Counted from the stretch's first letter, positions 1 through 38,697 are shown. The stretch is 64,000 nucleotides of DNA from an uncultured Acidobacteriaceae bacterium (GCA_963713645.1 CAVQMQ010000008.1:6473-70472), one strand, 5' to 3'. Notes: generated from the letters alone by a model not told the origin. Program-made: numbers and translations.

Positions 1-144
1 GACGCGATCTTCACCGACTATCGGACTGCGTTCTCAAAACAAATGAGCAAGTTGGGTTACTGGAGCGATTGGAAGCTATTCAACTCATCGGATTTTGGAG
101 TTCCTCAGCTCCGCAGATCGAGATTAACTCAAGAGGCTTTCTAA
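1..144 (+). pseudogene. C5 DNA cytosine methyltransferase fragment (5' end outside window), stops just after motif VIII
   Basis: Frame +1 reads DAIFTDYRTAFSKQMSKLGYWSDWKLFNSSDFGVPQLRRSRLTQEAF* (TAA 142-144). SDFGVPQLR is C5-MTase motif VIII; the TRD and motifs IX-X are missing. Confidence 0.75.
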
Positions 145-18296: not shown

Positions 18297-18614
18297 AAGT
18301 TCCTCCGTTCTGGACCTCTACTCCGAAGGAGACTGTACGCCTTTCTTCAAATAACTTGCCTGTGACGGCGAGCACAGGATGTAAGTTGCGAGTAGTAACT
18401 ATCCCGATCCGGGATGATATATTACGTAAGTTTTTATTCGTCTTGAATCTAGATCAACGTGTATTAGTCGCGAGCATTACTTTTTTATCTTTGCCGGCAA
18501 GCGAACAGCGCGCGGCAGCGCGTTTTTTGATGCTCATTTCATGCTGACGGGCCGGGTGGATGGCTGACCGAGGACGGAGATTCGGGCAGGGTTGCCACTC
18601 GCGCGATTTTTCTG

Positions 18615-21690: not shown

Positions 21691-22989
21691 CTATTGGCTT
21701 GGCGGCTTGGCGGAAGAGCTGTCCTTCGCCGCAGGAGCGGCGTCTGCGGGTTTGTCAGGCGGAGCAGGCGCGGCTGCTTTCTGTCTGCGGTCGGCGGCCT
21801 TCTGCAACTCTTCGTCCTGCTTTTCTTTTTCCGCGGCGGCCTGCGCGTCGGTCACATAGCGGAAGACCTGCAACCGTCCGGGAAATTGCTCGGTGGTGAA
21901 GACCCGGTTGTACTTGTCGATCGCTACACCCACCAGGGCTTTGAACTGGCCGGGCAACTCGCCGTGTCCCTGGCCGATATATGTGAGCAACTGGCCATCG
22001 CGGTTGAAGACCTGAAGGCGGTCTTCCATCTCGTCGGCCACCCAGATATGCCCGTCGCCATCAACAGCGATACCCTTGGGCCGCGCGAAGCATCCGGGGC
22101 CATCGCCATGCTTGCCGAAGAGGCTGATGAAGTTGCCGTCGGCATCGAAGATCTCGACGCGATTGTTCAGCGTGTCGGTCACGTAGACATTGCCGTCCTG
22201 ATCGAGAGCCACGCCCTGCGGCGCGCCGAAGTCGCCTGGGCTGGTAAGGAAGTGATTCTTGCCGCCGGTGCCGATGCGCCTGAGCAGCTTGAGTGTGTCC
22301 GCGTCGTAGACGATGACCTGGTCCTGCTGAGTATCTACGACGTAGAGAAAACGGTTGGCTGTATCTATGGCCAGGCCGACCGGGTCTTCGAGGCCCTCGG
22401 TGATCTGGCCTTCAACTTCATGTTTCTTGTTGAAGATCATCACACGGTGCATCTTGCCGTCAGAGACAAAGAGGCGGTCATCGTCATCGATGGCCAAACC
22501 GTTGATCCAGCCGAAGTGAGCCTCGTAGCCGTTACGAATCATCTGTACGTCACGTGTAACCGTGTTGAAGATGAAAACAGCGCCCACCTTTTGATCGGCC
22601 ACATAGACCAGGCCATTGGAGTCGATGGCAATGCCGTAGGGGCCGATAAGTTGGAAGGGAAAGGTCTTGGGATTAAATTTTTCAGCCTGCGATTGCCCGC
22701 CCGCCAGGCGGTCCATCCAGGTGGCCTTGGGTTTGTCGTTGGCTGCCGGGGTGTAATCGATCTTTGCGCCGGCATAGTAGTCGAGCCAGCGAACGCGGGC
22801 GATGTTGGGCGGGCTGGGCCAGACTAGCTTGGAGGGGTCAAAGGGGAATTTGCGCGGACCGACAGCGGGCGCAGGAGTGTCGGCCTTTTTCTTCGCTGCG
22901 CTGGCGGGAAAAGGAAGGGTGAGCGAGAGCAGCAGGAAGGCAGCGAGCAGCCTGGGAGCGCGAGGCGAATTCGTGAATAAGTAGTTCAT
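21691..22989 (-). CDS. secreted NHL-repeat beta-propeller protein
   Basis: Signal peptide, WPSPPNIARVRW leader, repeated PxGxAxD...YVxD...RV.IF units. Confidence 0.9.
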   Translation of the reverse strand: MNYLFTNSPRAPRLLAAFLLLSLTLPFPASAAKKKADTPAPAVGPRKFPFDPSKLVWPSPPNIARVRWLDYYAGAKIDYTPAANDKPKATWMDRLAGGQSQAEKFNPKTFPFQLIGPYGIAIDSNGLVYVADQKVGAVFIFNTVTRDVQMIRNGYEAHFGWINGLAIDDDDRLFVSDGKMHRVMIFNKKHEVEGQITEGLEDPVGLAIDTANRFLYVVDTQQDQVIVYDADTLKLLRRIGTGGKNHFLTSPGDFGAPQGVALDQDGNVYVTDTLNNRVEIFDADGNFISLFGKHGDGPGCFARPKGIAVDGDGHIWVADEMEDRLQVFNRDGQLLTYIGQGHGELPGQFKALVGVAIDKYNRVFTTEQFPGRLQVFRYVTDAQAAAEKEKQDEELQKAADRRQKAAAPAPPDKPADAAPAAKDSSSAKPPSQ

Positions 22990-23001
22990 CTCAAACTCCG
23001 T

Positions 23002-24496
23002 TTACTTCTCCGGGGAAGTTGTTTCTTTCATATTCAGGCGGTTCTTGTGGCAGTTGTCGCAGAAGGCCATGTTGTTTTCCTGGTCTTTTACCAACAGGTC
23101 AGCGTGCGATGAGGCATGCGCTTGATGGCAACTGAGGCAACTGAGCGGCGTCTTCACTTTTGTTTGATTCGTCGGGTCCATCACGTCCGAGACAGGATGG
23201 TACTCGACTGGGTGCCCGAGGCCAAAGCGCAAAGGCAGAATAGCCACCTTGTTCTTCTTGTAGTAATCGTCAGGAAGCTTGACCGTGCCGTTAAAGATCG
23301 TCAGCAGATGCTGGTCCGCGACAGGCTGCGGAGCCGAATCCGGTCCGTGGCACTCAAGGCAAAGCGCATTGCCCTTGGCGCGCAGCAGGTGATCGTTGTC
23401 GCCGCCATGCGGAGTGTGGCAAGTTGCGCAGCCTTGCGTAAAGGCGGGCTGATGGTGGAACGGCTTTTTGCCCAGGTCGCCGATGTCGGTGTGGCAGCCG
23501 GTGCAGATGCTCACCGGATCTGTCTTGGGCAGGCCGGGTTCGTTGCTGGCGTGCGGGCTGTGGCAATCGGTGCAGTCGCCTGCCGCGCCGGGGTGCGGCA
23601 CTTTCGCGGAGTCGATGAGCTTGGCTTTGTCGTCGTGGCAGGTAACGCAGAGTGCTTTCACGTCGGTCTGCGTCAGCACGACTTTTCCGTCTTTGGCCGG
23701 CGCGTGGCACATTTCGCAGCTCTTTGCCTCAAAGGGCACATGCTGAAACTTGGCCATCAGCTTGGGCGCGGCGGATTGATGCGGGTCGTGGCACTCCAGG
23801 CAGTTGGCCGTGGCGAAGGGCTGATTCTGATGGGCCTTGGCCAGCTCTGGATCTTTCGCATCGTGGCAATCGAGGCAGAGCGCGGGGGCGGCTTTGGTCA
23901 AATGGAAGCGGTTCTCAACTGTCGGCTCAGCGCCGGTTTTGTGGGTCAGGTGGCAGGCGTCGCAGCCTGCTTCGAGCGCTGCATGGCGGCTGCCCTTCTC
24001 CGGCACATTCAGCCCGGTCTTGTGGCAACTGAGGCAGAGGTTTTCTTTCTCACTGCCCGACATCGGCTTGAGCAACTGATTCTTGTTGTCGCTGACGTGG
24101 GGATCGTGGCAGGTGAGGCAGTCGCGCACCGCCGGCGGATGGACTGTGCCTTTGATGTCGGCGGCTTTTTTATCCGCGTGGCAACTGATGCAGAGCGATA
24201 CCGGCGTCGCGGTGATCAGCTTGACTCGGGTGACATCTTTATTGACGCGGACCTCATGGCAACCGAGGCAGCCGGCGGCCATCGCCGAGTGAACTGACTT
24301 GCCCTTGCTCTTGTCGTCGTGGCACTCCACGCATTTGGCGGCGTCGGTTCTTGGGGTCGAGCGGCACGGGATGAACGGCGGCCGAGGCGCGCGCGGCCAG
24401 CATCGCAAAGAAAATGGCCCAAAGAAAAATCCGCGGCGTGTGACAGCCGGACTTGGCGACCGTTCGGCACCACGCGCGATGAGGAACCAACTGCAT
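23002..24496 (-). CDS. 16-heme c-type cytochrome (paired-CxxCH type); N-terminus separated by a +1 frameshift near 24348
   Basis: 16 CxxCH counted. The signal peptide (IFLWAIFFAMLAARASA-AVHPVPLDPK) lies in another frame from ATG 24496 (GGAG RBS); deleting one base in AAGAACCGAC gives ...PK-TDAAKCVECH. Confidence 0.88.
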
Positions 24497-24670: not shown

Positions 24671-24766
24671 ATTGCGGGCAGGTTGCCGGCACACGCGGAC
24701 GGGTGCAAGCAACGGAAGAACAACAATTTCTCATGTGTATTAGAAATGGCGGAGGGAATCTGCGAC

Positions 24767-24782
24767 GGTGATTTATATCACA
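24767..24782. promoter_or_regulatory. CRP-type operator
   Basis: GGTGA-tttata-TCACA (9/10 match to TGTGA-N6-TCACA) in the divergent region between the 16-heme and tetraheme-B genes. Confidence 0.55.
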
Positions 24783-24967: not shown

Positions 24968-25831
24968 ATGATTCGAATTATTTTGTTGGTCCTGCTGTTT
25001 CTTGCTACCGCAAGCTTCGCCCCGGCGCAGATCGTGTCGGCGACGACCGATGTGCTGGGCGCGCACCTGAACTATGGCCGGGGTTGCGCGGCCTGCCATG
25101 CTCCGCACAGCGGATCGGAAGGCAACGGCAACACAAAAAAAGCCGACTCCGCTTCCGGCAATTCTATGCTCTGGGGCGAGGATGTGAGCAGCCTCTACGG
25201 CAAGACCATCACTACAGGCGGAGGCAAATTTGTCGAGACGCTGCCCACCAGCATGTCGGCCACTACGCCGGATGTGAACGGAATGCTGACCTGCCTCAGT
25301 TGCCACGACGGCAACTATGCGTCGAGCGCGATGATGAAGAACCAGCTCTATGAGACGCTGCCCGCGAGTTACGGAACGCATAACACCGTGCCCACACTGC
25401 TGGGCAATAACAGCACCGGCGCTGGCAATTATCTCAACGAGCATCCAACAGGACTAAGCGCGGTGATCAAGTGCGGCGGCAACGGCTGGGATTGCTCACA
25501 GGCCAATGGCGTGGTGAGCATGAAGGGCGCGAACTCCAGCCAGTTTGTGGCTAACTACGGATTCTTTGTGCAGCCAGGGAGTTATAACAACAGCGCCGTG
25601 GTGGTTTGCACCACCTGCCACAATCCGCACACGATGAATGTGGTGACGGTAACTCACGGAACGAACTCCGGCCTGCCTGCGGGCAACTACGCGACGATGT
25701 TCTTTTTACGCGGCCCCTATAACCCGAAGGATACTAACTCGCAGTCAAACCAGACGGCGCAGTTCTGCCGCCAGTGCCACGGAGATTTGTCGAATGAGAT
25801 GAATGGCAGCACGGCGGGAACGGTGTTTTAG
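24968..25831 (+). CDS. secreted tetraheme cytochrome c, OmcE-like layout (paralog B)
   Basis: Signal peptide; GAH...CAACHAPH...LW...CLSCHDG...LNEHP...CTTCHNPH...FLR...CRQCH; CAGGAG RBS. Confidence 0.88.
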   Translation: MIRIILLVLLFLATASFAPAQIVSATTDVLGAHLNYGRGCAACHAPHSGSEGNGNTKKADSASGNSMLWGEDVSSLYGKTITTGGGKFVETLPTSMSATTPDVNGMLTCLSCHDGNYASSAMMKNQLYETLPASYGTHNTVPTLLGNNSTGAGNYLNEHPTGLSAVIKCGGNGWDCSQANGVVSMKGANSSQFVANYGFFVQPGSYNNSAVVVCTTCHNPHTMNVVTVTHGTNSGLPAGNYATMFFLRGPYNPKDTNSQSNQTAQFCRQCHGDLSNEMNGSTAGTVF

Positions 25832-28060: not shown

Positions 28061-28094
28061 TTCCCAGGTCCCAAAAAGCGGAACCTGGGAGACC
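28061..28094. repeat. REP-like hairpin
   Basis: TTCCCAGGTCC-CAAAAAGC-GGAACCTGGGA-GACC, same family as 26431 and 61798. Confidence 0.65.
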
Positions 28095-28107
28095 ATTTAT
28101 TCCGCGC

Positions 28108-29187
28108 TCAAAAATACGCGCAGGAATCGGTGTATGTTCCTCCGTTGGAGTAGGCGGCTGAGCTTAAGTCCCACTTCAGGCTGATGCCATCTCCCTTTCC
28201 TTCGACCGTTACCGAGACAGAAGCACTTCCAACGAAGGCCACGTCGCCATCTGTTTGAGCAATCGTCCGGCTTGTACTGCCCGTTGTTCCGGTAACGCCC
28301 TTATTGTCATGACCAAAGTGGTATCCAGGCCACCCACTTCCGCTGGAGGTATTGCTGAGAGCAAACGGCTGCGGCTTGCAACTGGTATCGCAGGTAATGC
28401 CGGCCTGCTGCTCCCCCAGACTCAAGGTCCACACGGTAATCCCGTAAATATCCTTACCGGTTGCGTCGTAATGAGCCCATGTATAAGTCAGGCCATAGTC
28501 CTTGGGGTGGCTCGCAAGACCGCATGTCCCCTTTGCTTCAGAGGTGGCGTCAGACGCAGGCTGCCGGGAGGTAGTGGCATTTGCGGGCTGGGTTAGATAT
28601 GTCACCCGCGGCCCCCATCCTTCCGCCTTCAGGCGAAGGCGGGTTTCGACCTTCGTCTGCAGGTAGTCCACGACCGGATCAAGCACCGCGCAGTGATCGA
28701 GTCCGGACCAGCAGAACTCCAGCGCTTCGTGGGAGCGCTGATCTCCGCCGATGGTTGCGCTTACCTGAAGGAGGCGATAGGAACCGTCTTCAAGAGGAAG
28801 CCCGAAGTCGGCGAACCTGTCTGCCTGATCTTCCATGTTGCGTTGCCCGTAGGCCGGATCTTCCGGCACGGCAAAACGGGGATTGCTGAGAATGGTTCCG
28901 GTCTGGTCGGCAAGGATGCGGTACTCGGGCACCGTGATCAACGTGTTAAAAGGCTTGCCTGCAAGGGCCGTCATGTCGCCGGACTCGAGCGTCTCTACGC
29001 TGAAGGAAATCGCTCCGGAGGTTGCAGTGGCGTACTCATTGTAGAGTCCTTCCGCATAATTGGCGACGAGCGGAGGTTGCGTGAAAGCGAGGGTTGGTTT
29101 CAGGGCTTGCTGCGTTCTGGCGATCGGCCCACTGGCCAAAAGTGAGACGAGCAGAATTCCGGTCACGTTCCAATTTGTGCTGTTCAT
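28108..29187 (-). CDS. secreted hypothetical protein (359 aa, 6 Cys)
   Basis: ATG with GAGAGG RBS, signal peptide, Gly/Ser/Thr-rich beta-type C-terminal half; no family recognised. Confidence 0.7.
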   Translation of the reverse strand: MNSTNWNVTGILLVSLLASGPIARTQQALKPTLAFTQPPLVANYAEGLYNEYATATSGAISFSVETLESGDMTALAGKPFNTLITVPEYRILADQTGTILSNPRFAVPEDPAYGQRNMEDQADRFADFGLPLEDGSYRLLQVSATIGGDQRSHEALEFCWSGLDHCAVLDPVVDYLQTKVETRLRLKAEGWGPRVTYLTQPANATTSRQPASDATSEAKGTCGLASHPKDYGLTYTWAHYDATGKDIYGITVWTLSLGEQQAGITCDTSCKPQPFALSNTSSGSGWPGYHFGHDNKGVTGTTGSTSRTIAQTDGDVAFVGSASVSVTVEGKGDGISLKWDLSSAAYSNGGTYTDSCAYF

Positions 29188-29245
29188 AGGAACCTCTCCA
29201 TTTTCGGATTGTGATGGTCACGGATTGTGGGTGGACGCGGATTAC

Positions 29246-29362
29246 TAGAGCGGTTCTCCAATTTCTGTGGAGTAGCTGAAATTGTGCAAGGTGACTTTTT
29301 CTTGAGTAAAAAGTCACTTGAGTACATCAATTCCGCTCTACACCAATTGGAAAACGGCTATA
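29246..29362. mobile_element. MITE-like repeat, copy C
   Basis: TAGAGCGGTTCTCCAATT...GTGACTTTTTC-TTGA-GTAAAAAGTCAC...TCCGCTCTACACCAATTGGAAAACGGCTATA. Confidence 0.75.
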
Positions 29363-29687
29363 GCCGCGCCTTGGGTTCTGAAACCAGGCAACTGCAAAGC
29401 AAGGTTTTTAGTTAATTGCACTACAGATAGGGGAAGATGGAGCAGACACTGCTTTGTTCCCGTGCAGGGCCAATAGGAACGATGCTTCGTGAATCTGGGT
29501 TGCGTTGGCGTGTCAAGCGCTGACTAAGGAGGTCCAGCTAGTCACAGACTGTACCCTGGAAGGTTCTGGATGTCAAGACGGACATTTGTGTGCACAGGGG
29601 CAAATAGGACGCGGTGTCACTCACCATTTAGGCTTAAGCCGTTCTAATCTATGGCTACACTACTCCTTGACTCGCGGTGATAATTTC

Positions 29688-31574
29688 TTATTTTTTTACG
29701 CCGACAATTTTGCGCACGCTGGTTTGCGTGACGGAGCCGTCGGCGTTATGCGCGGCCTGGTGGCAGACCATGACACAGGTGTTGGCGGTGCGGTTGTAGC
29801 TGATGGGCAGGCCGCCGTTCGAGGCCACTACGTTGACATCGAAATTGATCAGCCGCTCACCGGTGATGGTTCCGCTGGTGGCTCCCATGCCGTGAGCGGT
29901 GTGGCACGCAGAGCAACTGAAGCCGGAGTTGATGTGGGTGCTGTGCTGGCTCCAACTGGTGTTTTTGATGATCTGGTTTCCGAGGTCGTGGCATTTGCCG
30001 CAGAGACCGTAAGGTCCGTTGACGCTGAGATCGGGATTGGGAAAGAGATTGTTGATGAGCTGGCCAGGTGCGGCGGCCTGGCTGAACTCGTAGCGGCGTT
30101 CGAGGATATGCGTCCAGCGCGAGCCGTGCGGACCATTGGAGCCAATGCCGCCGAACTCGCGGTTGTCATCGCTGTTGTGGCAGTCGGAGCAGAGAATCTG
30201 CGTACCCATAGCTCGGCCCTGCGTAGCTCCGTCAAGGTTGAGCATATTGGTCAGCAGGCTGGGCTGGGTGAGCGTGCTGTTGTTCGTATGCGTGACCGGA
30301 TGGCTCGATGTGGCCGTGGCCGCGAACTGCGGAATCTGGTTGAGCGGGTCACCGGCTGAGACGGCGCGGACCGGGAAGTAGCCGTAGATGGGCTGCACCT
30401 GCTTGCCCGAGCTTGTGCCGTGGCAGCGCAGGCAGCTTTCATATTGGTTGACGGCGGGGGTGAGGACGGTGATGCCGTCGGTGGCGCTGATGCCCGCCGC
30501 GTCTTTTTGCGAAACGCGAATCGCCGGAGCGGGCGGGAATGTGCCGACAACCTCGGACCCGTGGGCGCTGTGGCAATCGACGCAGGTGGCGTGGCGGTTG
30601 TTGTTGAGCAGCGTGCTCTCGGCGGCGTCGTGCGGGTTGGCCGAGGTGGGGAAGGGATGGCCCACCTTTGGCGTGGCGTACTCGGCAAAGACGTTGGCGT
30701 AGGTGGGCATCGGCGAGACGTTCGCGCCATTGTGGCAGGCGATGCAGTCCTGCTCGTTCGGTCCGCGCAAAATGCGCGATGCCCCGGCTGCATTGTGTGG
30801 CGCGTGGCAGGCGATGCAAGCTGCTCCGGCGACGGCTGGATAGCTGCCCAGCAACGCGGTTGGAGAAATTTTATCGGTCGAAAGAGCATGGGCGCTGATG
30901 GCCCAGTCAGCGAGCGGGTTGACGTGGCCGCTCAACTGGCGGGTGGGGTCGTGACAAGCGAGGCAAAGCTGGCCGCTGGAGCTATCTTTTACGAGAAAGT
31001 TCAGCGAGACAGTGTCTTTGGCCTGGACGTGGGGATTGTGGCAAGAGGAGCACTCGACATTGCCCTTGATCAGCTTGACCGCGCCGGTGGGGTCGGCGGT
31101 TTTGCCGCCGGCGGCAAGCGTTGCAACGAGGTCGATATTGTCTTTGAGAGGCGTGACCAGGCTGAAGGGGTGTGAGTTCTGCAGGTTGCTGCCAAAAACA
31201 TCCGTGGAGTACATCGATCCATGCGTGGTGACTTGGCCGTAGACCACCGTAGTGCCAAGAGCAACGGTACCGTCGTGGCAACTGAGGCACTGATTGCTGT
31301 CAGCGCCGAGAGTAGGCTGGCGGCTTTTATTTGTTTCAGTATCGCTGCTGTAGACGGAGTAGGTCTGCGTGGTGAGCTTCTGGTTCCACAGTCCGCGATT
31401 GAGTCCTGAGTGGGGCGCGTGGCAGTAAGCGCAGGCATCGGGGCGCGCGCCGGTGATGGGCGACTTGCTGCCGGGGCCGAAGCTATGCATGCCCATCACG
31501 TCGCCGGAGATTTGCGCGGAGAGCGCGCTGGCGGAAGCAAGAAGCAAAAAAGAGCAAAGAAACCGGAGGTTCAC
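29688..31574 (-). CDS. secreted 12-heme cytochrome c with an N-terminal OmcE-like tetraheme module
   Basis: Minus strand confirmed from the sequence (GTG at 31574, TAA at 29688-29690). 11 CxxCH plus a terminal CVMVCH; start overlaps the upstream NHL stop (GTGA). Confidence 0.9.
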   Translation of the reverse strand: MNLRFLCSFLLLASASALSAQISGDVMGMHSFGPGSKSPITGARPDACAYCHAPHSGLNRGLWNQKLTTQTYSVYSSDTETNKSRQPTLGADSNQCLSCHDGTVALGTTVVYGQVTTHGSMYSTDVFGSNLQNSHPFSLVTPLKDNIDLVATLAAGGKTADPTGAVKLIKGNVECSSCHNPHVQAKDTVSLNFLVKDSSSGQLCLACHDPTRQLSGHVNPLADWAISAHALSTDKISPTALLGSYPAVAGAACIACHAPHNAAGASRILRGPNEQDCIACHNGANVSPMPTYANVFAEYATPKVGHPFPTSANPHDAAESTLLNNNRHATCVDCHSAHGSEVVGTFPPAPAIRVSQKDAAGISATDGITVLTPAVNQYESCLRCHGTSSGKQVQPIYGYFPVRAVSAGDPLNQIPQFAATATSSHPVTHTNNSTLTQPSLLTNMLNLDGATQGRAMGTQILCSDCHNSDDNREFGGIGSNGPHGSRWTHILERRYEFSQAAAPGQLINNLFPNPDLSVNGPYGLCGKCHDLGNQIIKNTSWSQHSTHINSGFSCSACHTAHGMGATSGTITGERLINFDVNVVASNGGLPISYNRTANTCVMVCHQAAHNADGSVTQTSVRKIVGVKK

Positions 31575-32641
31575 CTGGTTCCTCCGGCAGCGGATTTTTT
31601 CAGAGCCGCGTATTGAAAGACCTGAACGCGGCGATTAAACGAATCGACGACGAAGACGTGATCGGATGAATCGATGAAGAGGCCGGAGGGCAACTGAAAC
31701 TGGCCGGCGTGGGTTCCTGCTTCGCCGAAGTTATAGAGGAGTTCTCCTTGGCGGTTGAAGACCTGCACCATGCCCCACTGGGCATCGACGATGTAGAGAT
31801 CGCCTTCAGAGTCCGCGCTGACGGCTTTGGGGCGGAAGATTGCGCCGGGCGAGTCGCCGAGCTTGCCAATGGCGTACTGGAATGCGCCGGAGCGGTCGAA
31901 GACCTGGATGCGGAAGTTCATGGCATCGACGACGATGAGGTTGGGTCCGTCGAGGCGCAACTCGGTGGGGAGATTGAATTCGCCGTCGGCCTGGCCGGAT
32001 TTGCCGATGGTCTGAAGGACGCGGCCTTCCATGTCGAGAACATAGACCTGGTCGCGCAGCGTGTCCGTCACATAGATGCGCTGGGCTGCGGAGTCAACGG
32101 CGATGCCAGTGGGACGCTTGAAAAAACCTTCGCCTTTGACGCTCCCGAGGACGCGGAGGAATTTGCCGCTGGGTGCGAAGACGAAGATCTTGCCCGCGTC
32201 GGAGTCAGTGACATAGATATTGTCCTGGGCATCGACGGCGATGCACTGCGGGGTGCGCATCGGGTTTTTGTCTTTCTCGTTGCGCTCGATGAATTTGTAT
32301 TTGCGCTCGGTGAAGTCGAAGATATGCACGCCCTCTGCGCCAGGATCGGTGACAAGGATGCGGCCGTGGGAGTCAACGGCGATGCTGTAGGGGCGGACGA
32401 GAGAGTGATAATCGGGCGCGCCGGCGATCACATCAACGAGCTTGTTCCAGAAGCCGCGATTGGGCTTGACTTCAAACTCAGAGCTGAAATTGCGCTGCCA
32501 GGTGAGCTTGCGGCCGCCATCGAGCGACATCTCCCACTGCTCGGGCGTTGTGGCGTGGGGCTTGTTTGCCGCGGTTGCGCAGAGCGGAGTGAGCGCGATG
32601 ACGGCCAGCAACAGGGCCGCGCGCTGAGGTTCCCGCCGCAT
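31571..32641 (-). CDS. secreted NHL-repeat beta-propeller protein
   Basis: Signal peptide; RPYSIAVD, RPTGIAVD, LPTELRLD, RPKAVSAD, LPSGLFID repeats; ATG 5 nt after the barrel stop. Confidence 0.9.
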   Translation of the reverse strand: MRREPQRAALLLAVIALTPLCATAANKPHATTPEQWEMSLDGGRKLTWQRNFSSEFEVKPNRGFWNKLVDVIAGAPDYHSLVRPYSIAVDSHGRILVTDPGAEGVHIFDFTERKYKFIERNEKDKNPMRTPQCIAVDAQDNIYVTDSDAGKIFVFAPSGKFLRVLGSVKGEGFFKRPTGIAVDSAAQRIYVTDTLRDQVYVLDMEGRVLQTIGKSGQADGEFNLPTELRLDGPNLIVVDAMNFRIQVFDRSGAFQYAIGKLGDSPGAIFRPKAVSADSEGDLYIVDAQWGMVQVFNRQGELLYNFGEAGTHAGQFQLPSGLFIDSSDHVFVVDSFNRRVQVFQYAALKKSAAGGTR

Positions 32642-32646
32642 CGCTC

Positions 32647-34500
32647 TCAGAAGAAGTTGAACCAACGCGAGACTCCGATATAGAACGAGGATACAACCTG
32701 CGGCGCTGTGCCGGAGGTGCTAAAGCCCTGCTCGATGCGGGCGAAACCGCTGTTGAAATTCAACTTGCGGAATTGGTACTGCACCAGGGTATTGAACTGG
32801 TTGCTCTGGTTGGTGGAGGAGATCGAGTTGCTGAATGTATTGCTGAGGGATTTGGAATAGGCCGCCGCGATGACGAATTTCTTCACCGGCGTGCTCGATA
32901 GTCCAATGGAATAACTGTTGCCGCCGAAGAGGCTGACCAGATCAGAGTCGCTGGTCGTCGTGCCAACCGGAACTGGCACCAGCCCGGAGCCGGTTTCAAG
33001 AGCCTGTCCGCTGGCTTTGGAGTAGCTGCCAGTAGCGGTGATCAGCGGTCCATAGCCGATGCTGGCGTTGTAACTCTGGCTGCTGTTGGCGGTGCCTGCA
33101 TCTTCAGTCAAACCTGTGCGCGAGGCTCCCGCGCCGGCGCTCACGTTGAATTTTCCCCAGCGGCGGCGGGCATTGGCCGAGTAGTTATAGAAGGAGTTCG
33201 TATAGGTGACGAGCAGAGTCTGAACATTCTGGGCGTAGCCGAAGGAGCCGTTGACCTGCCAGCCAAGAAGCTGCTTGGAGTAGTTTTCCGTGGTTGAAAA
33301 TCCCAGGGAGTTTTCTCCGGTTTTTTCGGCGGTATTTTCAGTCACCGTCATTGCCGCGTTGAAGGTGCCGTCGAGCAGCGCATAAGCGTAGGTTGCGCTT
33401 GCGCCGTAGGATTGCACGCCGTAGTCTTGGCCGAGGTAGGATTGGGAGCGGCGTTCGGCGAAGACAGACCCCTGCAGATCGGCGAGCGGAGCGTAACTCG
33501 CTACCGCCAGCAGATCGAGCGAGTTGGAGGACTGGTCTGAATCTGTTCCGGAGACCACGCCGCCAGCCGCGACGACGGACTGCTCCAATTGCCCGGCGAG
33601 ATTGTCAGAGTAATTCGCGCTGACCGAGACGGTGAGCTTGCCGGCGGGATGCACGGCAGCGAGGGCGTTCATCATGTCAATGGTTCCGCTAGAGCCTGCG
33701 CCGAGGTATTCGCTGTTCCAACTGGAGCGGTTGATGCCGGCGGAGACTGAGCCTTTGAGGGGCAGAACATGCGAGACATTGAAGCCGAGGGCGCTGCTGC
33801 TGGACTTAGATTCTGAATCCGCTTCGCCGGAGACGACTTCGGGGATGAGCGCATGGCCGCCGCCGAGGGAATAATAGGCGCCCATGACGAAGCCCGCGTA
33901 TTTATAGCCGGAGTGCAGGTTGAGGGAATGGAATGCGTTTTGTCCCTGATCGCTGGTTCCGTAGACGGAATACTGGCTCGAGCCCATCTGGAATCCGGCG
34001 GAAAAACTTGGCGCGTCTGGGAGGTTCTCGCTCCAGTTGAAGCCGAAGGTATCGCTGTTGCCGTGGGTGACGTAATTGGCCATGCCGGGCACGGCGTAGT
34101 TGCCCTCGCTGTTGTAGGCCTTGGAATAGTTGATGGAACCGGGGAAGCGGCTGCCGCCGAAGATGTTGGCGGAGGCATCGATGCCACTGGCATCGGAGAT
34201 GGACTGGAAGTTGGAATTGGCCCGCGATTGATTCAGGTAGAGACCGACATTGAAGGAAAGAAAATTCGGGTTGTAATAGGAGCCGTTGAAATTGGCTGCT
34301 CCGCCGACGGTCCAGGTATGATCGGAAGCCGTCTGATTGCCGTAATCGGCGGTATAACCCGGCGCAATCGTGCCACTCAGGTCGGTGCTGAAGTCGCCGA
34401 ATTTGATTTGTGCGCTGGCCGGAAAAGCGAGCAGCAGAAACCCAGCCAGCAGGAAAGATGCTGCGGGCCAGGAATTCGTTGCTGTGCGACTGCTGTGCAT
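32647..34500 (-). CDS. outer-membrane beta-barrel protein (617 aa)
   Basis: Signal peptide, many alternating-hydrophobic Ser/Gly/Tyr-rich strands, no Cys, C-terminal aromatic signature IGVSRWFNFF. Confidence 0.82.
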   Translation of the reverse strand: MHSSRTATNSWPAASFLLAGFLLLAFPASAQIKFGDFSTDLSGTIAPGYTADYGNQTASDHTWTVGGAANFNGSYYNPNFLSFNVGLYLNQSRANSNFQSISDASGIDASANIFGGSRFPGSINYSKAYNSEGNYAVPGMANYVTHGNSDTFGFNWSENLPDAPSFSAGFQMGSSQYSVYGTSDQGQNAFHSLNLHSGYKYAGFVMGAYYSLGGGHALIPEVVSGEADSESKSSSSALGFNVSHVLPLKGSVSAGINRSSWNSEYLGAGSSGTIDMMNALAAVHPAGKLTVSVSANYSDNLAGQLEQSVVAAGGVVSGTDSDQSSNSLDLLAVASYAPLADLQGSVFAERRSQSYLGQDYGVQSYGASATYAYALLDGTFNAAMTVTENTAEKTGENSLGFSTTENYSKQLLGWQVNGSFGYAQNVQTLLVTYTNSFYNYSANARRRWGKFNVSAGAGASRTGLTEDAGTANSSQSYNASIGYGPLITATGSYSKASGQALETGSGLVPVPVGTTTSDSDLVSLFGGNSYSIGLSSTPVKKFVIAAAYSKSLSNTFSNSISSTNQSNQFNTLVQYQFRKLNFNSGFARIEQGFSTSGTAPQVVSSFYIGVSRWFNFF

Positions 34501-34577
34501 ACTGCCTTGAATCTCATTCCCTTATCCGGTATCGCTTGCCGTCCGACTTTCAATGCAGCGTTGCCGGTTGCCTCTTG

Positions 34578-34694
34578 TAGAGCGGTTCTCCAATCGGTGT
34601 GCCCTTGCCAACACTGTGCAGGTGGCTTTCTCTTCGGGAAGAAAGCCACTCAGCGGTAGTGGTTTCGGTGTACTGCAATTGGAGAACCGCTGAG
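34578..34694. mobile_element. MITE-like repeat, copy D (diverged)
   Basis: TAGAGCGGTTCTCCAAT...GTGGCTTTCTC-TTCG-GGAAGAAAGCCAC...AATTGGAGAACCGCT. Confidence 0.7.
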
Positions 34695-34730
34695 GGCCAG
34701 CGCCTGGAATCCAGGCGCGTTTCGCATTGC

Positions 34731-35756
34731 TTACAGAATCTCGACCTTCGTGCTCTGCCGCAGCTTTTTATCCAGGTCGGCGCGCAGGTCGTTTTTCTTC
34801 TTCTCGTGCAGTTCTTTTTCCAGTTGCGCTTTCACCTCTTCAAATTTCGCTTTGCCTGCCGGGGTGTGCACGTTGAGGTGAACGATGGTGTAGGCCTGAT
34901 CCATCTGGATGAGATCGCTGACATCGCCGGGCTTCATTGCCGCGAGAGCCTTGATCACCTGCGGGGCAAGCTGGTCAACAGGAAGAGGCTTATGCTGGCC
35001 CATCATTACGCGGTAATCGTCGTCAGAGAGCTTCTCGGCGAGCAGGCCAAATTCCTCCGCTGTCTTTGCGGCTTTCGCTTGTTGCAGCGCCTGCTCGGCG
35101 CGCTTGCGGCCTTCCTTCGACTGATCGGCGGTGGCGTTTGGGGGAGGGAGAACGGAAATCGTCTGGAAGGTGTAGGACTCGGGGTGCTGGAATCGGGATG
35201 GATTCTTTTCGTAGTAAGCCCGCAGTTCTTCCGGCGTGACACTGCTCCTGCTTTCTACTTCAATTTTCAGAAAGGCTTCAATCAGCAGCGAGCGGCGAAT
35301 CTTCTCTTCGAGCAATTTTTCAGAACCGTGAAAGTCGGCCTGCAGGGATGCGTTGAATTCTTCGGGGGTTGCGTATTGCTTGCGGAAATCCTCTTCGGCA
35401 TGTTGCAGCTTCGCTGCGGGCACGGTCATCTTGCGGCGCTGCGCTTCCTGATAGACCATCTCTTCGAAGACGATCATCTTCAGCGCGCCATCGCGGATCT
35501 GAGATTCCAGTTCTTTGGGGACGCCGTTGTGTTGGCGGGCGTAGGGAAAGATCGCATATTCTTCGCGGACCAGATCGGCATCGGTGAGGACCGTGCCGTT
35601 GACGCGCGCCACGGGCTTATCCGCGATCTGCGTGAGCGCATTCGGCTGCTGTGTAGCTTGCTGCTTGAGGACGGTTGGTGCGTGAGAGGCCACCTGTGCG
35701 TCGGCAGCGGTGAGTGCCAGCAGAAGGAATCCGCAAGTTGTGAGTTTGTGCATCAT
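34731..35756 (-). CDS. SurA/PrsA-like peptidylprolyl isomerase (parvulin) chaperone
   Basis: Signal peptide, KPVARVNG, SurA-N-like helices, YYEKN..RF, F..LA..LSDD, KPGDVSDLI. Confidence 0.85.
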   Translation of the reverse strand: MMHKLTTCGFLLLALTAADAQVASHAPTVLKQQATQQPNALTQIADKPVARVNGTVLTDADLVREEYAIFPYARQHNGVPKELESQIRDGALKMIVFEEMVYQEAQRRKMTVPAAKLQHAEEDFRKQYATPEEFNASLQADFHGSEKLLEEKIRRSLLIEAFLKIEVESRSSVTPEELRAYYEKNPSRFQHPESYTFQTISVLPPPNATADQSKEGRKRAEQALQQAKAAKTAEEFGLLAEKLSDDDYRVMMGQHKPLPVDQLAPQVIKALAAMKPGDVSDLIQMDQAYTIVHLNVHTPAGKAKFEEVKAQLEKELHEKKKNDLRADLDKKLRQSTKVEIL

Positions 35757-35795
35757 GGTGGACCTTCAGATTCCGGTTTCCGTCGAGTGTTTTGC

Positions 35796-35826
35796 AAAAA
35801 AATGGGGAGGGAAACTGCCCCTCCCC
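35796..35826 (-). terminator. intrinsic terminator directly after tetraheme paralog A
   Basis: Minus strand GGGGAGGG(G)-CAGTTT-CCCTCCCC-A-TTTTTTT, 16 nt after the stop codon. Confidence 0.8.
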
Positions 35827-35842
35827 GTTCTATGCAGGTCGA

Positions 35843-36712
35843 TTAGAAGGTTGTGACAGCGGTGCTGCCGTTCATTTCGTTGGACTCGCCACCGTGGCAC
35901 TGGCGGCAGAACTGCGCGGTCTGGTTGCTGTTCGCAGTGCCGCTGGCCGGGTTGTAGGGTCCGCGCAGGAAGAACATGGTCGCGTAGTTGCCGCTGGTCA
36001 GGCCGGACTTCGGTCCGTTGGTGACCTTGACCACGTTCATCAAGTGCTGGTTGTGGCAGGTGGTGCAAACCACAACGGGCTGGTTGTTATAGGTGCCAGG
36101 CGAGACAAAGAATCCGTAGTTGGTGACGAAGAGGCTGGAGCCCGCTCCGTTCATCTGCACCGCGCCCGTCGCGCTGATGGTGCAATCCCAGTTGTACTGG
36201 CCGCCGCAACCCATGACGGCATTGAGTCCTACCGGGTGATCGTTGAGGTAGTTGCCGGTGGTGGTGCCGTCGTTGCCGAGCAGGGTTGGGATGGTGTTGG
36301 CGGTACCGTAGGTGGCGGGCAGGGTCTCATAGACCTGGTTCTTCATCATGGCACCCTGCGCGTAGTTGCCGTCGTGGCAGCTGAGGCAGGTGAGCAGGCC
36401 GGAAACGTCAGGCGTGATGGCCGCCATGCTGGTGGGCAGGACTTCTACATCAGCTCCGCCGCCAGTGGTGATGGTTTTGCCGTAGAGGCTACCGACATCC
36501 TCGCCCCAGAGAGCGACGTTGCCCGAGGTTGGATCGGCGGTCTTGGCGTTGCCGTTGCCGTATGCGCCACTATGTGGGGCATGACAGGCAGCGCAGCCGC
36601 GGCCGTAATTGAGATGTGCGCCGAGTACGTCGGTAGACGGCGTGGTGATCTGGGCCGCCGCAAAGCCGGCGCCTGCCAGAAACATCAGGGAGATTAAAGA
36701 AATGCGTTTCAT
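35843..36712 (-). CDS. secreted tetraheme cytochrome c, OmcE-like layout (paralog A)
   Basis: AGGAGG RBS, signal peptide; GAH...CAACHAPH...LW...CLSCHDG...LNDHPV...CTTCHNQH...FLR...CRQCH; exactly 8 His in the mature chain. Confidence 0.9.
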   Translation of the reverse strand: MKRISLISLMFLAGAGFAAAQITTPSTDVLGAHLNYGRGCAACHAPHSGAYGNGNAKTADPTSGNVALWGEDVGSLYGKTITTGGGADVEVLPTSMAAITPDVSGLLTCLSCHDGNYAQGAMMKNQVYETLPATYGTANTIPTLLGNDGTTTGNYLNDHPVGLNAVMGCGGQYNWDCTISATGAVQMNGAGSSLFVTNYGFFVSPGTYNNQPVVVCTTCHNQHLMNVVKVTNGPKSGLTSGNYATMFFLRGPYNPASGTANSNQTAQFCRQCHGGESNEMNGSTAVTTF

Positions 36713-37002
36713 GTAGTAGAGCCTCCTGGTGCTCACTCTTGCTGCTCGACTGAACTGCGATGTTGGCCTCTCCGGCGCTTTCGTCAGTTCAGCCTTCCTG
36801 GACAACATCTGCCTGACCGATGCCGTAGCCGTGAGCGCAAGCGTTCCTGGGCGGCATCCCTAATTGATTGTTGAGGCTAACGTTCTTGTATCCAGCGTGA
36901 TAGCGGGTTGCCGGAACTCGCACTCCTTTGGCAGACTGTCCCGTACCCTTACCTTGGTGTAAGGGCGAGTGAAAATCGGTTACGGAGTGTATCGTTTTCA
37001 TA

Positions 37003-37226
37003 CGTGAGTCCCATCACCCTGTGTAATGCAGATAGCCGTGGATTAAGGCTTCCGCACACACTCGACATGCTCCCTGTATTTATTCAGGTGACAAGAGTCA
37101 CCCTCTGTGATGTGAGTCACGCATGGTAATTAAAGGCTTCTTTGTGATAGTCATCACACGCCTGCGTGATGCAGAGTGCCTGCCGGATTTTCCCTCCCCG
37201 CTAAAGTAATTGTGAGCAGTCTCACA
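37003..37226. promoter_or_regulatory. array of five CRP-type operators
   Basis: CGTGA-N6-TCACC (37003), GGTGA-N6-TCACC (37087), TGTGA-N6-TCACG (37106), TGTGA-N6-TCACA (37143), and AAT-TGTGA-N6-TCACA-TTT (core at 37211). Confidence 0.75.
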
Positions 37227-37249
37227 TTTGAGCAGAGAAAAGATAAGGA

Positions 37250-38044
37250 ATGGTCAACGAGGCACCAACAGCGATCAAAGCAATTCCCACACTGAAGACG
37301 GTGCAGGTTTACACGATGGCTGGGTTGTGCTTGCTGGGCGGGCTGGCGACGGGTTATTTGCTGGGGGGATCTCATGCGCCGGCTGCTCCTGGGCAACCGG
37401 CGTCCGTCGCCGCAACGGCTCCGGTTCTGCCAAGCGCGGCCAATGCTGCACAGATGCCGGGACTCGCAGAGATGAAGCAGGGAACGGCTGTGCAGGCGCA
37501 ACCGGCTTCAGGCGCAGTACGGTCTCCGCATACTGGCAGCGTGGCAAGCGGCGGACGGATGCCCAGCCTGCAAGAGATGAAGCAGATGGCCGACAAACAG
37601 GCCGCGCCGCTGCTCGAAAAGCTGAAGAGCGATCCCAACAACGGCGCATTGCTGGTGCAGGTGGGAGGCATTTATCATTCGACGCACCAGTTCGCCGAGG
37701 CGGTTGCCTATTACGGCAAAGCCGTGCAGGTTGAGCCGAAGAACGTTGACTATCGCACAAAGCTGGCGATCAGCATCTATCGAGGCGGCGACGCGGATGG
37801 AGCGATCGCTCAACTGAATCAGACGTTGAGTATCGACCCCAAGAACGCGAATGCTCTCTTCAACCTGGGTATGATCCGGTTGCAGGGCAAGCAGGACGGC
37901 AAGGGCGCGTTGGCAGCCTGGCAGATGTTGCTCAAGTCCAATCCGCAATTGAGTCCCGACCGCAAGGCGGCTGTACTGAAACTGATGGCCGATGTGATGA
38001 CGACGCTTGGCGAAGAGCCGGGAACGCGAGGCGCAAAGCAATGA
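37250..38044 (+). CDS. membrane-anchored TPR protein
   Basis: N-terminal TM (VYTMAGLCLLGGLATGYLL), Pro/Ala linker, TPRs (DPNN, EPKNV, DPKNANALFNLG). Confidence 0.85.
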   Translation: MVNEAPTAIKAIPTLKTVQVYTMAGLCLLGGLATGYLLGGSHAPAAPGQPASVAATAPVLPSAANAAQMPGLAEMKQGTAVQAQPASGAVRSPHTGSVASGGRMPSLQEMKQMADKQAAPLLEKLKSDPNNGALLVQVGGIYHSTHQFAEAVAYYGKAVQVEPKNVDYRTKLAISIYRGGDADGAIAQLNQTLSIDPKNANALFNLGMIRLQGKQDGKGALAAWQMLLKSNPQLSPDRKAAVLKLMADVMTTLGEEPGTRGAKQ

Positions 38045-38697
38045 CAGATATCCGACAAACCAGAGAATGGACGCGAGGGCAGGCAGCTCTGTTGTTCGCG
38101 GTCTGCCTTGTCGTGGGCATTGCGGGTGGCTGGACGATTCGCGGATTCAATACCACGGCAGCAAGCAACTCCGCGCCAATGGCCAATGCAGCTACGGCGC
38201 AAGGGAATAAAGTGGGCACTGCAGCGCCCACTGCCACGCGGCTGAAAGAGATGGCGGATGCCCAGGCAGCGCCTCTGGTGGAGAAGCTTAAAGCAGAGCC
38301 CAAAAATCCTGATCTGCTCATAGGCATCGGCAACCTATATTACGACGCGCAACAGTACCCTATCGCCGTTGACTACTACGAACGCGCGCTTGAGGCCCGG
38401 CCCTCGGATGCAGCCGTGCGCACCGATATGGGGACTGCCTACTGGTATATGGGCGATGCCGACCGGGCGCTTGCCGAGTTCGATAAGGCGCTCGGCTATG
38501 CGCCGAACAATCCCAATACGCTCTTCAATCGCGGCCTGGTGAAGTGGAAGGCAAAAAGGGACGGCGCGAGTGCGGCCGCCGATTGGCGGAAGCTGCTGGC
38601 CGTGGACCCGAACTACGCCGAAAAAGGTCAGGTGAACCAGATGCTGTCCGAAGTGGGAAAGCAAGCGGCAGCGCAGCCTGCGATGTCAGGAAAGTGA
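38041..38697 (+). CDS. membrane-anchored TPR protein (paralog of the preceding gene)
   Basis: N-terminal TM, QAAPLVEKLKAEPKN, PNNPNTLFNRG; ATGA overlap with the upstream stop. Confidence 0.85.
   Translation: MTDIRQTREWTRGQAALLFAVCLVVGIAGGWTIRGFNTTAASNSAPMANAATAQGNKVGTAAPTATRLKEMADAQAAPLVEKLKAEPKNPDLLIGIGNLYYDAQQYPIAVDYYERALEARPSDAAVRTDMGTAYWYMGDADRALAEFDKALGYAPNNPNTLFNRGLVKWKAKRDGASAAADWRKLLAVDPNYAEKGQVNQMLSEVGKQAAAQPAMSGK

What the first reader, a model, noticed from the sequence alone, without database searches (positions are those of the whole stretch)
37003..37226. Five CRP-type boxes in 224 bp (plus a sixth at 24767) mark the cytochrome promoters
Seen: two perfect TGTGA-N6-TCACA sites (37143, 37211; the latter with AAT/TTT flanks like the E. 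coli consensus), one 9/10 and two 8/10 sites in the divergent promoter of tetraheme A and the TPR pair. A 9/10 site also lies in the divergent promoter of tetraheme B and the 16-heme gene. A perfect 10-bp site is expected about once per 10^6 bp at even composition. I noticed no comparable sites elsewhere but did not scan exhaustively. Inference: one CRP/FNR-superfamily regulator co-controls both halves of the locus, perhaps via a cyclic nucleotide or redox signal.
Basis: partly seen in the sequence, partly recalled or inferred. Interest (0 to 1): 0.7.

Follow-up and report, generated by a model that had tools for sequence, protein, structure and literature searches.

The report
Redox-regulator boxes flanking acidobacterial cytochrome cluster
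The palindromes are real, genus-conserved docking sites for a CRP/FNR-type gene switch that probably senses oxygen or redox state rather than cAMP, and they place a soil acidobacterium's multihaem "nanowire-like" cytochrome cluster in a wider low-oxygen energy regulon.

Summary
Genome-wide, perfect TGTGA-N6-TCACA occurs 7 times in intergenic DNA (0.73 expected) and 3 times in coding DNA (3.2 expected). The core GTGA-N6-TCAC is specific to the 6-bp spacer.

In 20 Terracidiphilus relatives, every orthologous locus has at least 2 boxes upstream of tetrahaem A, and 15 also have a box on the 16-haem/B side. Sites 3 and 4 are confined to one clade, and the perfect site 5 is unique to this genome.

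The likely regulators are two near-universal Crp/Fnr paralogues encoded outside the window. Both have a CRP-like R-E-x-x-x-R recognition helix, lack the cAMP-binding residues, and carry four invariant cysteines (CxxCx8C plus a beta-roll Cys) arranged differently from FNR.

Boxes also precede ccmF, ccmE, nuoA (twice), hydrogenase, POR, feoA, usp and the second paralogue's own gene. A -10-like hexamer peaks 31 nt from box centres, which fits class II activation.

The sensed signal and the tetrahaem A promoter architecture remain inferred. I found no description of this regulon in the held literature, but other reports in this scan describe the same kind of regulon in other Acidobacteria.

The parts
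37003..37018 (.). Box 1, CGTGAGTCCCATCACC (8/10). Its GTGA/TCAC columns are invariant in 15 orthologous promoters. It lies 292 bp upstream of the tetrahaem A ATG.
37087..37102 (.). Box 2, GGTGACAAGAGTCACC (8/10). It is conserved across the genus and sits 84 bp from box 1, about 8 helical turns.
37106..37121 (.). Box 3, TGTGATGTGAGTCACG (9/10). It lies in an ~85-bp insertion that four aligned relatives (G024, G062, G055, G103) share in full; G120 and G005 share only its box-4 part.
37143..37158 (.). Box 4, TGTGATAGTCATCACA (perfect). It lies in the same clade-specific insertion as box 3. In the four-box relatives this box is followed by a -10-like TCnACT at +30 towards the TPR genes. That hexamer has degenerated in this genome.
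37211..37226 (.). Box 5, TGTGAGCAGTCTCACA (perfect). It is unique to this genome. Its centre is about 31 bp before the TPR start codon at 37250.
24767..24782 (.). Box on the 16-haem/B side, GGTGATTTATATCACA (9/10). At least one box lies in the equivalent promoter in 15 of 20 relatives.
24739..24744 (-). A -10-like hexamer, TCTAAT, starting 31 nt from the centre of the 24767 box. It reads towards the 16-haem gene.
   Evidence: sequence
18361..18376 (.). TACAGT lies at +32 towards the monohaem cytochrome c gene (17868-18296, minus strand).
29688..36712 (-). Presumed operon downstream of boxes 1-5: tetrahaem A (35843-36712), SurA-like PPIase (34731-35756), 617-aa protein with no Pfam match, called an outer-membrane barrel in earlier notes (32647-34500), NHL propeller (31571-32665) and 11-haem cytochrome (29688-31574).
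   Evidence: same gene order in G096
37250..38697 (+). Divergent pair of TPR proteins, 37250-38044 and 38041-38697, with weak matches to the CcmH/CycH-type TPR domain.
21691..24408 (-). 16-haem cytochrome (23002-24408) and NHL propeller (21691-22989), downstream of the 24767 box on the minus strand.
24968..25831 (+). Tetrahaem B. It is divergent from the 16-haem gene here. In G096 (the one relative whose gene map was listed) it lies downstream of the 16-haem gene in the same orientation.

Best explanation
The boxes are operator sites (core GTGA-N6-TCAC, consensus tGTGAt-N4-aTCACa) for four-cysteine members of the Crp/Fnr family.

The genome encodes two such paralogues, both outside the window: G000:C31:21447-22160 (237 aa) and G000:C3:337147-337917 (about 256 aa). 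Both carry the CRP-type recognition helix R-E-T-V-T-R and an N-terminal C-x2-C-x8-C motif plus an invariant Cys in the beta-roll. Neither has the cAMP-contact residues.

I infer that the active, probably metal- or Fe-S-loaded, dimer forms when oxygen or redox potential falls. It then binds the boxes and, at most targets, activates transcription from a class II position with the box centred near -42.5.

The Terracidiphilus multihaem (OmcE-like) cluster is an accessory locus, present in 36 of 121 genus genomes, that has been wired into this genus-wide regulon. Two invariant boxes about 8 helical turns apart sit in the divergent tetrahaem A operon / TPR promoter, and one box sits in front of the 16-haem(-B) operon. 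In this genome's clade the A/TPR region gained two more boxes, and this genome gained a fifth.

What is shown:
- the sites exist, are non-random and are conserved;
- the candidate regulators have these sequence features;
- the -10 hexamer sits at a fixed distance from the boxes genome-wide;
- the box-preceded gene set is as listed.

What is inferred:
- which paralogue binds;
- that the effect at tetrahaem A is activation;
- the nature of the signal.
For: Site reality.

Conservation at this locus: 67 core hits in 264 kb of 20 orthologous loci against about 3.7 expected. Of these, 49 are in the A/TPR promoter and 17 on the 16-haem/B side, and the N7 control spacer gives 0 hits. In the alignment of 15 intergenic regions (mean identity 41%), the invariant columns are almost only A's start/RBS and the GTGA/TCAC of boxes 1 and 2.

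Regulon conserved elsewhere:
- The box upstream of ccmF is kept in 12 of 13 genus genomes.
- The box CGTGAGGCCCATCACAT upstream of the C3 paralogue, together with CAnACT at +31, is invariant in 13 of 13.

Regulators:
- Of the Crp-family genes found in the genome, only these two have the R-E-x-x-x-R helix. That residue pattern goes with TGTGA-N6-TCACA in CRP and HcpR1 (PMC5701242).
- Both are near-universal in the genus: the C31 paralogue matched in 120 of 121 genomes, with a 237-aa orthologue of at least 81% identity in about 110, and the C3 paralogue matched in 109 of 121.
- C13, C16, C25 and C64 are 100% conserved, and R/E/R 97-99% conserved, in 67 diverse family representatives.

Geometry: the summed -10-like score peaks sharply at +31 from box centres, 42.9 against a background of about 7.

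Genes preceded by boxes: ccmF, ccmE, two nuoA genes, NiFe-hydrogenase small subunit, ATP-synthase b, H+-PPase, POR, phosphoketolase, feoA, tandem Usp, radical-SAM enzymes and cytochromes.
Against: - No binding, expression or TSS data exist.
- None of the five A/TPR boxes in this genome has a good -10 hexamer at +29..+33 in either direction.
- In this clade a ~37-bp insertion separates box 1 from the conserved block next to it, so how tetrahaem A is controlled is unclear.
- Box 5 lies 31 bp before the TPR start codon, a position more typical of repression.
- The two paralogues cannot be told apart by phyletic pattern.
- The cysteine set is not the FNR set, since C112, nearest to FNR C122, is only 52% conserved. 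Fe-S binding is therefore a guess.
- Neither protein reaches NCBIfam cut-offs for Fnr, CRP, FixK or FnrL.
- The AlphaFold model was of low confidence, pLDDT 57.
Confidence: 0.7

Rival explanations
1. The boxes are bound by the same regulators, but at this locus they act mainly as a repressor array, for example keeping the cytochrome and TPR genes silent under one redox state through multi-dimer occupancy or looping. On this view they are not class II activator sites.
For: - No canonical -10 lies at +31 from any of the five A/TPR boxes in this genome.
- Box 5 sits between any upstream promoter and the TPR ATG.
- Boxes 1 and 2 are spaced at near-integral helical turns in different clades (84/85, 51, 54+51 and 126 bp), as expected for cooperating dimers.
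Against: - In relatives, the box nearest the TPR genes is followed by a conserved TCnACT at +30, which is class II geometry.
- The rest of the regulon shows activator geometry.
- The B-side box has TCTAAT at +31.
Confidence: 0.15
2. A classical cAMP-CRP catabolite system, or another cyclic-nucleotide-binding Crp paralogue, recognises the boxes and links cytochrome expression to carbon status, as in Shewanella.
For: - The box equals the E. coli CRP consensus.
- The best PDB sequence matches of the C31 regulator are the cAMP-binding GlxR and Mycobacterium CRP.
- Shewanella CRP controls omcA/mtrC (PMC4417206).
- The genome has about 9 further Crp-family genes with cNMP-type domains.
Against: - In the R-E-R paralogues the cAMP contacts G-E...R-T-S are replaced by G-L...H-E-V.
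- The CRP equivalog score is 55 bits against a cut-off of 266.
- The other paralogues carry different recognition helices (TRSRVSF type, or VRELISR) that are not predicted to read GTGA.
Confidence: 0.07
3. The boxes are chance palindromes or parts of a mobile or repeated element (a MITE-like family is present in this locus) and have no regulatory role.
Against: - Enrichment is specific to the N6 spacer and to intergenic DNA.
- The box columns are invariant inside otherwise 41%-identical orthologous promoters.
- The boxes lie outside the reported MITE coordinates.
- The same boxes are conserved at unrelated loci.
Confidence: 0.02

Closest known systems
FNR of Escherichia coli / Aliivibrio fischeri (O2 sensor with an N-terminal [4Fe-4S] cluster; class II promoters)
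   Same: - Same superfamily fold.
- An N-terminal Cys-rich extension that the Fnr model and the PDB FNR chains align from Cys13.
- Global, near-universal regulator.
- Box centred about -42 from the inferred start.
- The candidate regulon covers respiration, ccm, hydrogenase, feo and usp.
   Different: - The cysteine pattern is C-x2-C-x8-C plus an invariant beta-roll Cys64, instead of C20-x2-C23-x5-C29 plus C122.
- The recognition helix is R-E-T-V-T-R, not E-x-x-S-R, so the box is GTGA-N6-TCAC rather than TTGAT-N4-ATCAA.
- It scores 59 bits against the 228-bit Fnr cut-off.
- No cluster has been demonstrated.
E. coli CRP (CAP) and multi-site CRP promoters (class II/III; the malE-malK divergent region, cited from my own knowledge)
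   Same: - Identical consensus box.
- R-E-x-x-x-R helix.
- Several dimers within one divergent control region.
- Class II geometry.
   Different: - The cAMP-binding residues are absent.
- The N-terminal cysteines are absent from CRP.
- The regulon concerns redox and energy metabolism rather than catabolite control.
HcpR1 of Desulfovibrio desulfuricans (PMC5701242)
   Same: - A non-cAMP Crp/Fnr regulator with R, E and R at helix positions 1, 2 and 6.
- It binds a perfect TGTGA-N6-TCACA and controls its own gene.
   Different: - HcpR1 is an NO-stress regulator, not co-located with the hcp/frdX genes that define HcpR in other Desulfovibrio species.
- A link of these boxes to hcp was not tested here.
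- The phylum and the sensor region differ.
Shewanella oneidensis CRP control of omcA-mtrCAB (PMC4417206)
   Same: A CRP-box regulator controls genes for extracellular-electron-transfer multihaem cytochromes.
   Different: - Shewanella CRP depends on cAMP.
- The cytochromes are of the MtrC/OmcA type, not OmcE-like tetrahaems.
Two-tier Fnr-to-Dnr cascades (Pseudomonas ANR/DNR, from my own knowledge; Dinoroseobacter FnrL/Dnr, PMC5398030)
   Same: A second paralogue's gene carries a conserved class II box of the family motif (13 of 13 genomes). This suggests either a cascade or autoregulation.
   Different: Here both paralogues share the same helix and the same cysteine motif. Which one senses what is unknown.

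Membership tests
Crp/Fnr-superfamily operator sites | A 5-6-5 inverted repeat TGTGA-N6-TCACA (core GTGA-N6-TCAC) | tested here: met
Crp/Fnr-superfamily operator sites | Non-random occurrence: enriched in intergenic DNA and specific to one spacer length | tested here: met
   Perfect sites: 7 intergenic against 0.73 expected. Core: 48 with N6 against 7-12 for other spacers.
Crp/Fnr-superfamily operator sites | Conserved in orthologous promoters | tested here: met
   N7 control gives 0 hits
Crp/Fnr-superfamily operator sites | A cognate regulator with HTH_Crp_2 plus a cNMP-type beta-roll, and a helix matching the box (R-E-x-x-x-R) | tested here: met
   helix rule from PMC5701242
Crp/Fnr-superfamily operator sites | Class II position (box centre about -41.5) at target promoters | tested here: inconclusive
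   Met statistically for the regulon, for the 24767 and 18361 boxes, and for the TPR promoter of relatives. Not seen for any A/TPR box in this genome. No TSS data.
Crp/Fnr-superfamily operator sites | Physical binding by the regulator | not testable with these tools
   Needs EMSA, DAP-seq or ChIP.
cAMP receptor protein (CRP/GlxR type) | Phosphate-binding cassette residues (G-E ... R-S/T) that contact cAMP | tested here: not met
   G-L ... H-E-V in the alignments with GlxR and E. coli CRP
cAMP receptor protein (CRP/GlxR type) | Reaches the NCBIfam CRP equivalog cut-off | tested here: not met
   55 bits against 266
FNR (O2-sensing [4Fe-4S] regulator) | Ligand set C20-x2-C23-x5-C29 plus C122 | tested here: not met
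   C-x2-C-x8-C plus invariant C64. The Cys nearest C122 is only 52% conserved.
FNR (O2-sensing [4Fe-4S] regulator) | E-x-x-S-R helix and TTGAT-N4-ATCAA box | tested here: not met
   RETVTR helix and GTGA-N6-TCAC box
FNR (O2-sensing [4Fe-4S] regulator) | Reaches the NCBIfam Fnr subfamily cut-off | tested here: not met
   59 bits against 228
FNR (O2-sensing [4Fe-4S] regulator) | An oxygen-labile Fe-S cluster | not testable with these tools
   Only the four invariant cysteines are shown.
FNR (O2-sensing [4Fe-4S] regulator) | A regulon of respiratory and low-oxygen functions | tested here: met
   ccmE/F, nuoA (two), hydrogenase, POR, feoA, usp, radical SAM and cytochromes. This rests on site position only.
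HcpR1-type NO-responsive regulators | R, E and R at helix positions 1, 2 and 6, with a TGTGA-N6-TCACA box | tested here: met
HcpR1-type NO-responsive regulators | Control of hcp or NO-detoxification genes | not tested
   I did not look for hcp among the box-preceded genes.

The most novel reading that the evidence does not exclude
An uncharacterised four-cysteine clade of Crp/Fnr sensors (CxxC-x8-C plus a beta-roll Cys, with a CRP-type helix) is the master low-oxygen/redox switch of Acidobacteriaceae and directly turns on their OmcE-like 'nanowire' cytochrome cluster. The growth of the A/TPR control region from 2 to 4 to 5 boxes within one genus is recent cis-regulatory evolution that tunes how sharply extracellular electron transfer is switched on.
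Probability: 0.4. Interest if true: 0.6.

Novelty: new variant of a known kind. Interest (0 to 1): 0.5.

Why it matters
Acidobacteriaceae such as Terracidiphilus are recovered again and again as genomes from peat, bog and soil metagenomes (record titles). My searches of the held literature found no description of how they switch their metabolism when oxygen runs out (the microaerobic Acidobacteriaceae study PMC8407424 does not mention Fnr).

These boxes give a concrete, testable handle:
- a defined motif;
- two candidate sensors;
- a candidate regulon covering cytochrome c maturation, complex I, hydrogenase, POR and iron uptake;

If that link holds, extracellular electron transfer in these bacteria is an oxygen- or redox-controlled trait, and this bears on iron and humic reduction in peat.

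The same locus with two boxes is present in a cultured strain, Occallatibacter savannae AB23, so the prediction can be tested.

Tried and rejected
- Rfam scan of 24300-38000: only sub-threshold noise, so no known riboswitch or leader RNA.
- DNA-level search with the whole intergenic region in 40 relatives: almost nothing matched. The region is not conserved as a whole, only the boxes and the start-proximal leader.
- Leader of tetrahaem A: the sequence is conserved, but only 1 of 13 predicted pairs covaries. This gives no support for a structured RNA.
- Sigma-54 reading of the conserved block next to box 1: spacing and orientation do not fit (my inspection). Rejected.
- Phyletic co-occurrence to pick the regulator: both paralogues are near-universal while the locus is in 36 of 121 genomes, so this does not discriminate.
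- Autoregulation of the C31 paralogue: no consistent box upstream of it. By contrast, the C3 paralogue has invariant boxes.
- ccmF box in the neighbouring family: not found in 7 genomes, so this box position is shown only within the genus.
- AlphaFold model of the C31 regulator from a shallow alignment: pLDDT 57 and no coordinates available. Not used, and no fold search was run.

Full report
**Observation**

The region 36713-37249 is the 537-bp divergent spacer between tetrahaem A and the first of two TPR genes. Tetrahaem A is on the minus strand with its ATG at 36712. The first TPR gene is on the plus strand with its ATG at 37250.

The spacer holds five copies of the core GTGA-N6-TCAC:
- 37003 (CGTGAGTCCCATCACC)
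- 37087 (GGTGACAAGAGTCACC)
- 37106 (TGTGATGTGAGTCACG)
- 37143 (TGTGATAGTCATCACA, perfect)
- 37211 (TGTGAGCAGTCTCACA, perfect)

Two perfect sites compare with 0.04 expected from shuffles of the window.

**Is it more than chance?**

In the whole 6.2-Mb assembly (57% G+C) I called ORFs crudely and split the sequence into coding and intergenic parts.
- Perfect boxes: 7 in intergenic DNA against 0.73 expected from composition, and 3 in coding DNA against 3.2 expected.
- One-mismatch boxes: 54 against 22.6 intergenic, and 77 against 105 coding.
- The core occurs 48 times in intergenic DNA with a 6-bp spacer, but only 7-12 times with spacers of 3-5 or 7-10 bp.
- The symmetrised logo is tGTGAt-N4-aTCACa.
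- No other intergenic region has more than two core sites, whereas this one has five.
- A PWM trained on 56 sites from other contigs ranks 37143, 24767, 37211, 37106 and 18361 as the five best hits of the window. 37087 ranks sixth and 37003 ninth, and all seven are intergenic.

**Conservation**

The tetrahaem A/B cluster is present in 36 of 121 genus genomes sampled.

I fetched 20 orthologous loci, 264 kb in total. They contain 67 core sites against about 3.7 expected from composition:
- 49 lie in the A/TPR spacer, with at least 2 in every locus.
- 17 lie on the 16-haem/B side, in 15 of the 20 loci.
- One is unassigned.
- The control spacer N7 gives no hit in any of the 164 loci held.

In an alignment of 15 A/TPR spacers with 41% mean column identity, the invariant columns are almost exclusively A's start and ribosome-binding site, the GTGA...TCAC of box 1, and the GTGA...AC of box 2. 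So the two "8/10" boxes are the ancestral, constrained ones.

Boxes 3 and 4 sit in an ~85-bp insertion that four aligned relatives (G024, G062, G055, G103) share in full. Box 5 is unique to this genome.

The box 1 to box 2 distance is 84-85 bp in most genomes. In others it is 51, 54+51 or 126 bp. All of these are close to whole numbers of helical turns. With only about four independent architectures, I read this as suggestive only.

In G096 the 16-haem gene and B form one co-oriented pair with the box about 130 bp upstream. In the window B has come to lie on the other side of the box.

**The regulator**

The genome has 12 clear HTH_Crp_2 genes plus weaker hits. Only two carry R-E-x-x-x-R in the recognition helix, as T(S/T)RETVTR:
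- C31:21447-22160 (237 aa)
- C3:337147-337917

R, E and R at helix positions 1, 2 and 6 is the pattern associated with TGTGA-N6-TCACA in CRP and in Desulfovibrio HcpR1 (PMC5701242). The other paralogues have TRSRVSF-type or VRELISR helices.

Both candidates begin with C-x2-C-x8-C. In alignments with GlxR and E. coli CRP, the cAMP contacts (G-E ... R-T/S-S) are replaced by G-L ... H-E-V.

The best PDB matches are GlxR and Mycobacterium CRP, followed by Aliivibrio FNR aligned from Cys13. Neither protein reaches the curated NCBIfam cut-offs for Fnr (59 against 228 bits), CRP (55 against 266), FixK, FtrB or FnrL.

A search of 1.8 billion representative proteins found 299 clusters at E of 1e-30 or better. 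Among the 123 full-length members of the best 150 hits, 65 have the C-x2-C-x8-C motif and about 108 have an RE[TSA][VI][TS]R helix. Across the 67 aligned sequences that carry the motif (the two paralogues plus the retrieved representatives):
- C13, C16, C25 and C64 are 100% conserved.
- R201, E202 and R206 are 97-99% conserved.
- C112, the residue nearest FNR's C122, is only 52% conserved.

This is therefore a distinct four-cysteine clade, and not FNR proper.

Both paralogues are near-universal in the genus. The C31 protein is 81-95% identical in about 110 of 121 genomes, and the C3 protein is about 75-85% identical in 109 of 121. The cytochrome cluster is accessory. The locus was therefore plugged into a pre-existing global regulon, and phyletic patterns cannot say which paralogue acts on it.

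**Regulon and geometry**

Genes directly downstream of strong intergenic boxes:
- ccmF (perfect box) and ccmE
- two nuoA genes
- a NiFe-hydrogenase small subunit
- ATP-synthase b and H+-pyrophosphatase
- pyruvate:ferredoxin oxidoreductase and phosphoketolase
- feoA and a tandem Usp
- two radical-SAM enzymes
- an HTH-less cNMP-domain protein
- a monohaem protein with a giant NHL protein
- the C3 paralogue itself, with a divergent dihaem cytochrome

The ccmF box is conserved in 12 of 13 genus genomes inside a 35%-identical region.

Upstream of the C3 paralogue, the box CGTGAGGCCCATCACAT and a CAnACT hexamer at +31 are invariant in 13 of 13 genomes. A second box serves the dihaem gene. This indicates autoregulation or a C31-to-C3 cascade.

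Over all intergenic boxes, the summed score for a -10-like hexamer peaks sharply at +31 nt from the box centre, 42.9 against about 7 elsewhere. This puts the box centre near -42.5, which is the class II activator position of CRP and FNR.
- The 24767 box has TCTAAT at +31 on the minus strand, pointing at the 16-haem gene.
- The 18361 box has TACAGT at +32, pointing at the monohaem gene.
- In relatives, the box nearest the TPR genes is followed by a conserved TCnACT at +30.

**What remains unclear at the A/TPR spacer**

- In this genome none of the five boxes has a convincing -10 at +29..33 in either direction.
- The TCnACT hexamer has degenerated here.
- A perfect box 5 has appeared about 31 bp before the TPR ATG. 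That position would block rather than recruit RNA polymerase, unless translation starts at the downstream ATG at 37316.
- On the A side, box 1 keeps a distance of 271-313 bp to the ATG in 14 of the 15 aligned genomes (118 bp in G120). It adjoins a conserved 40-bp block in two-box genomes, but a ~37-bp insertion separates them in this clade.
- The long A leader is conserved in sequence without covariation support for structure, and Rfam finds nothing.

I therefore rate [quoted passage not shown] as very likely. "Activation at low oxygen" is likely for the 16-haem operon and the TPR genes, and plausible but unproven for the A operon.

**Comparison with known systems**

The system works like FNR: a global regulator with an N-terminal cysteine sensor, class II activation, and a respiratory regulon. 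It reads a CRP-type box, as HcpR1 of Desulfovibrio does. It fails the defining tests for both FNR and CRP membership.

Control of extracellular-electron-transfer cytochromes through CRP boxes is known in Shewanella, where it depends on cAMP (PMC4417206). Two-tier Fnr/Dnr cascades are known (PMC5398030).

I found no description of an acidobacterial regulon of this kind in the held literature. PMC8407424, on microaerobic Acidobacteriaceae, does not mention Fnr.

Earlier AI notes of this scan report the same four-cysteine regulator and boxes in other Acidobacteria, and OmcE-likeness of the tetrahaems here. I saw the first set only after my own analysis, treat all of them as unchecked leads, and did not test OmcE-likeness.

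**Verdict**

This is a new variant of a well-known kind of switch. It matters mainly because it makes redox control of an acidobacterial multihaem cluster directly testable.

Noticed in passing
window 18361-18376: A seventh CRP-type box (TGTGACGGCGAGCACA, 9/10) with TACAGT at +32. It lies 65 bp upstream of a 142-aa monohaem class I cytochrome c gene (17868-18296, minus strand).
   Followed up: partly
window 36713-36870 (minus-strand leader of tetrahaem A): The ~150 nt before the A start codon are conserved in sequence across the genus and include the inverted repeat CTGAAC...GTTCAG. A second repeat, GCACGA-n-TCGTGC, is degenerate in this genome. RNAalifold finds only 1 covarying pair and Rfam finds nothing. 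This could be a protein operator or a translational element.
   Followed up: partly
window 36940-36985 and relatives (alignment A1, columns 266-312): A ~40-bp block (GATGGGCGTTCTnGCACAGT..TTGGTGAAAAGCCCCA) next to box 1 is strongly conserved in relatives but weakly in this genome. A ~37-bp insertion separates it from box 1 in this genome and five aligned relatives (G064, G024, G062, G055, G103), all but G064 carrying boxes 3-4. Its function is unknown.
   Followed up: no
G000:C35:156741-157235 (outside the window): A 164-aa protein with only a cNMP-binding-type domain and no HTH sits behind two strong boxes (TGTGATGTGAATCACC and TGTGATTTGAATCACC). It may be a sensor-only modulator of the same regulon.
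   Followed up: no
G000:C28:19755-19796 (outside the window): Two perfect boxes 26 bp apart lie between a 445-aa monohaem protein gene and a 1829-aa NHL/Ig-repeat protein gene. This is the only other place in the genome with two perfect boxes.
   Followed up: partly
   Followed up: no
window 24805-24836: A near-perfect 14-bp inverted repeat (CTGTGGTGATCCC..GGGAATCACCACAG) lies just downstream of the 24767 box. It contains GGTGA/TCACC half-sites at the wrong spacing (N14). It could be a hairpin or an unrelated operator.
   Followed up: no
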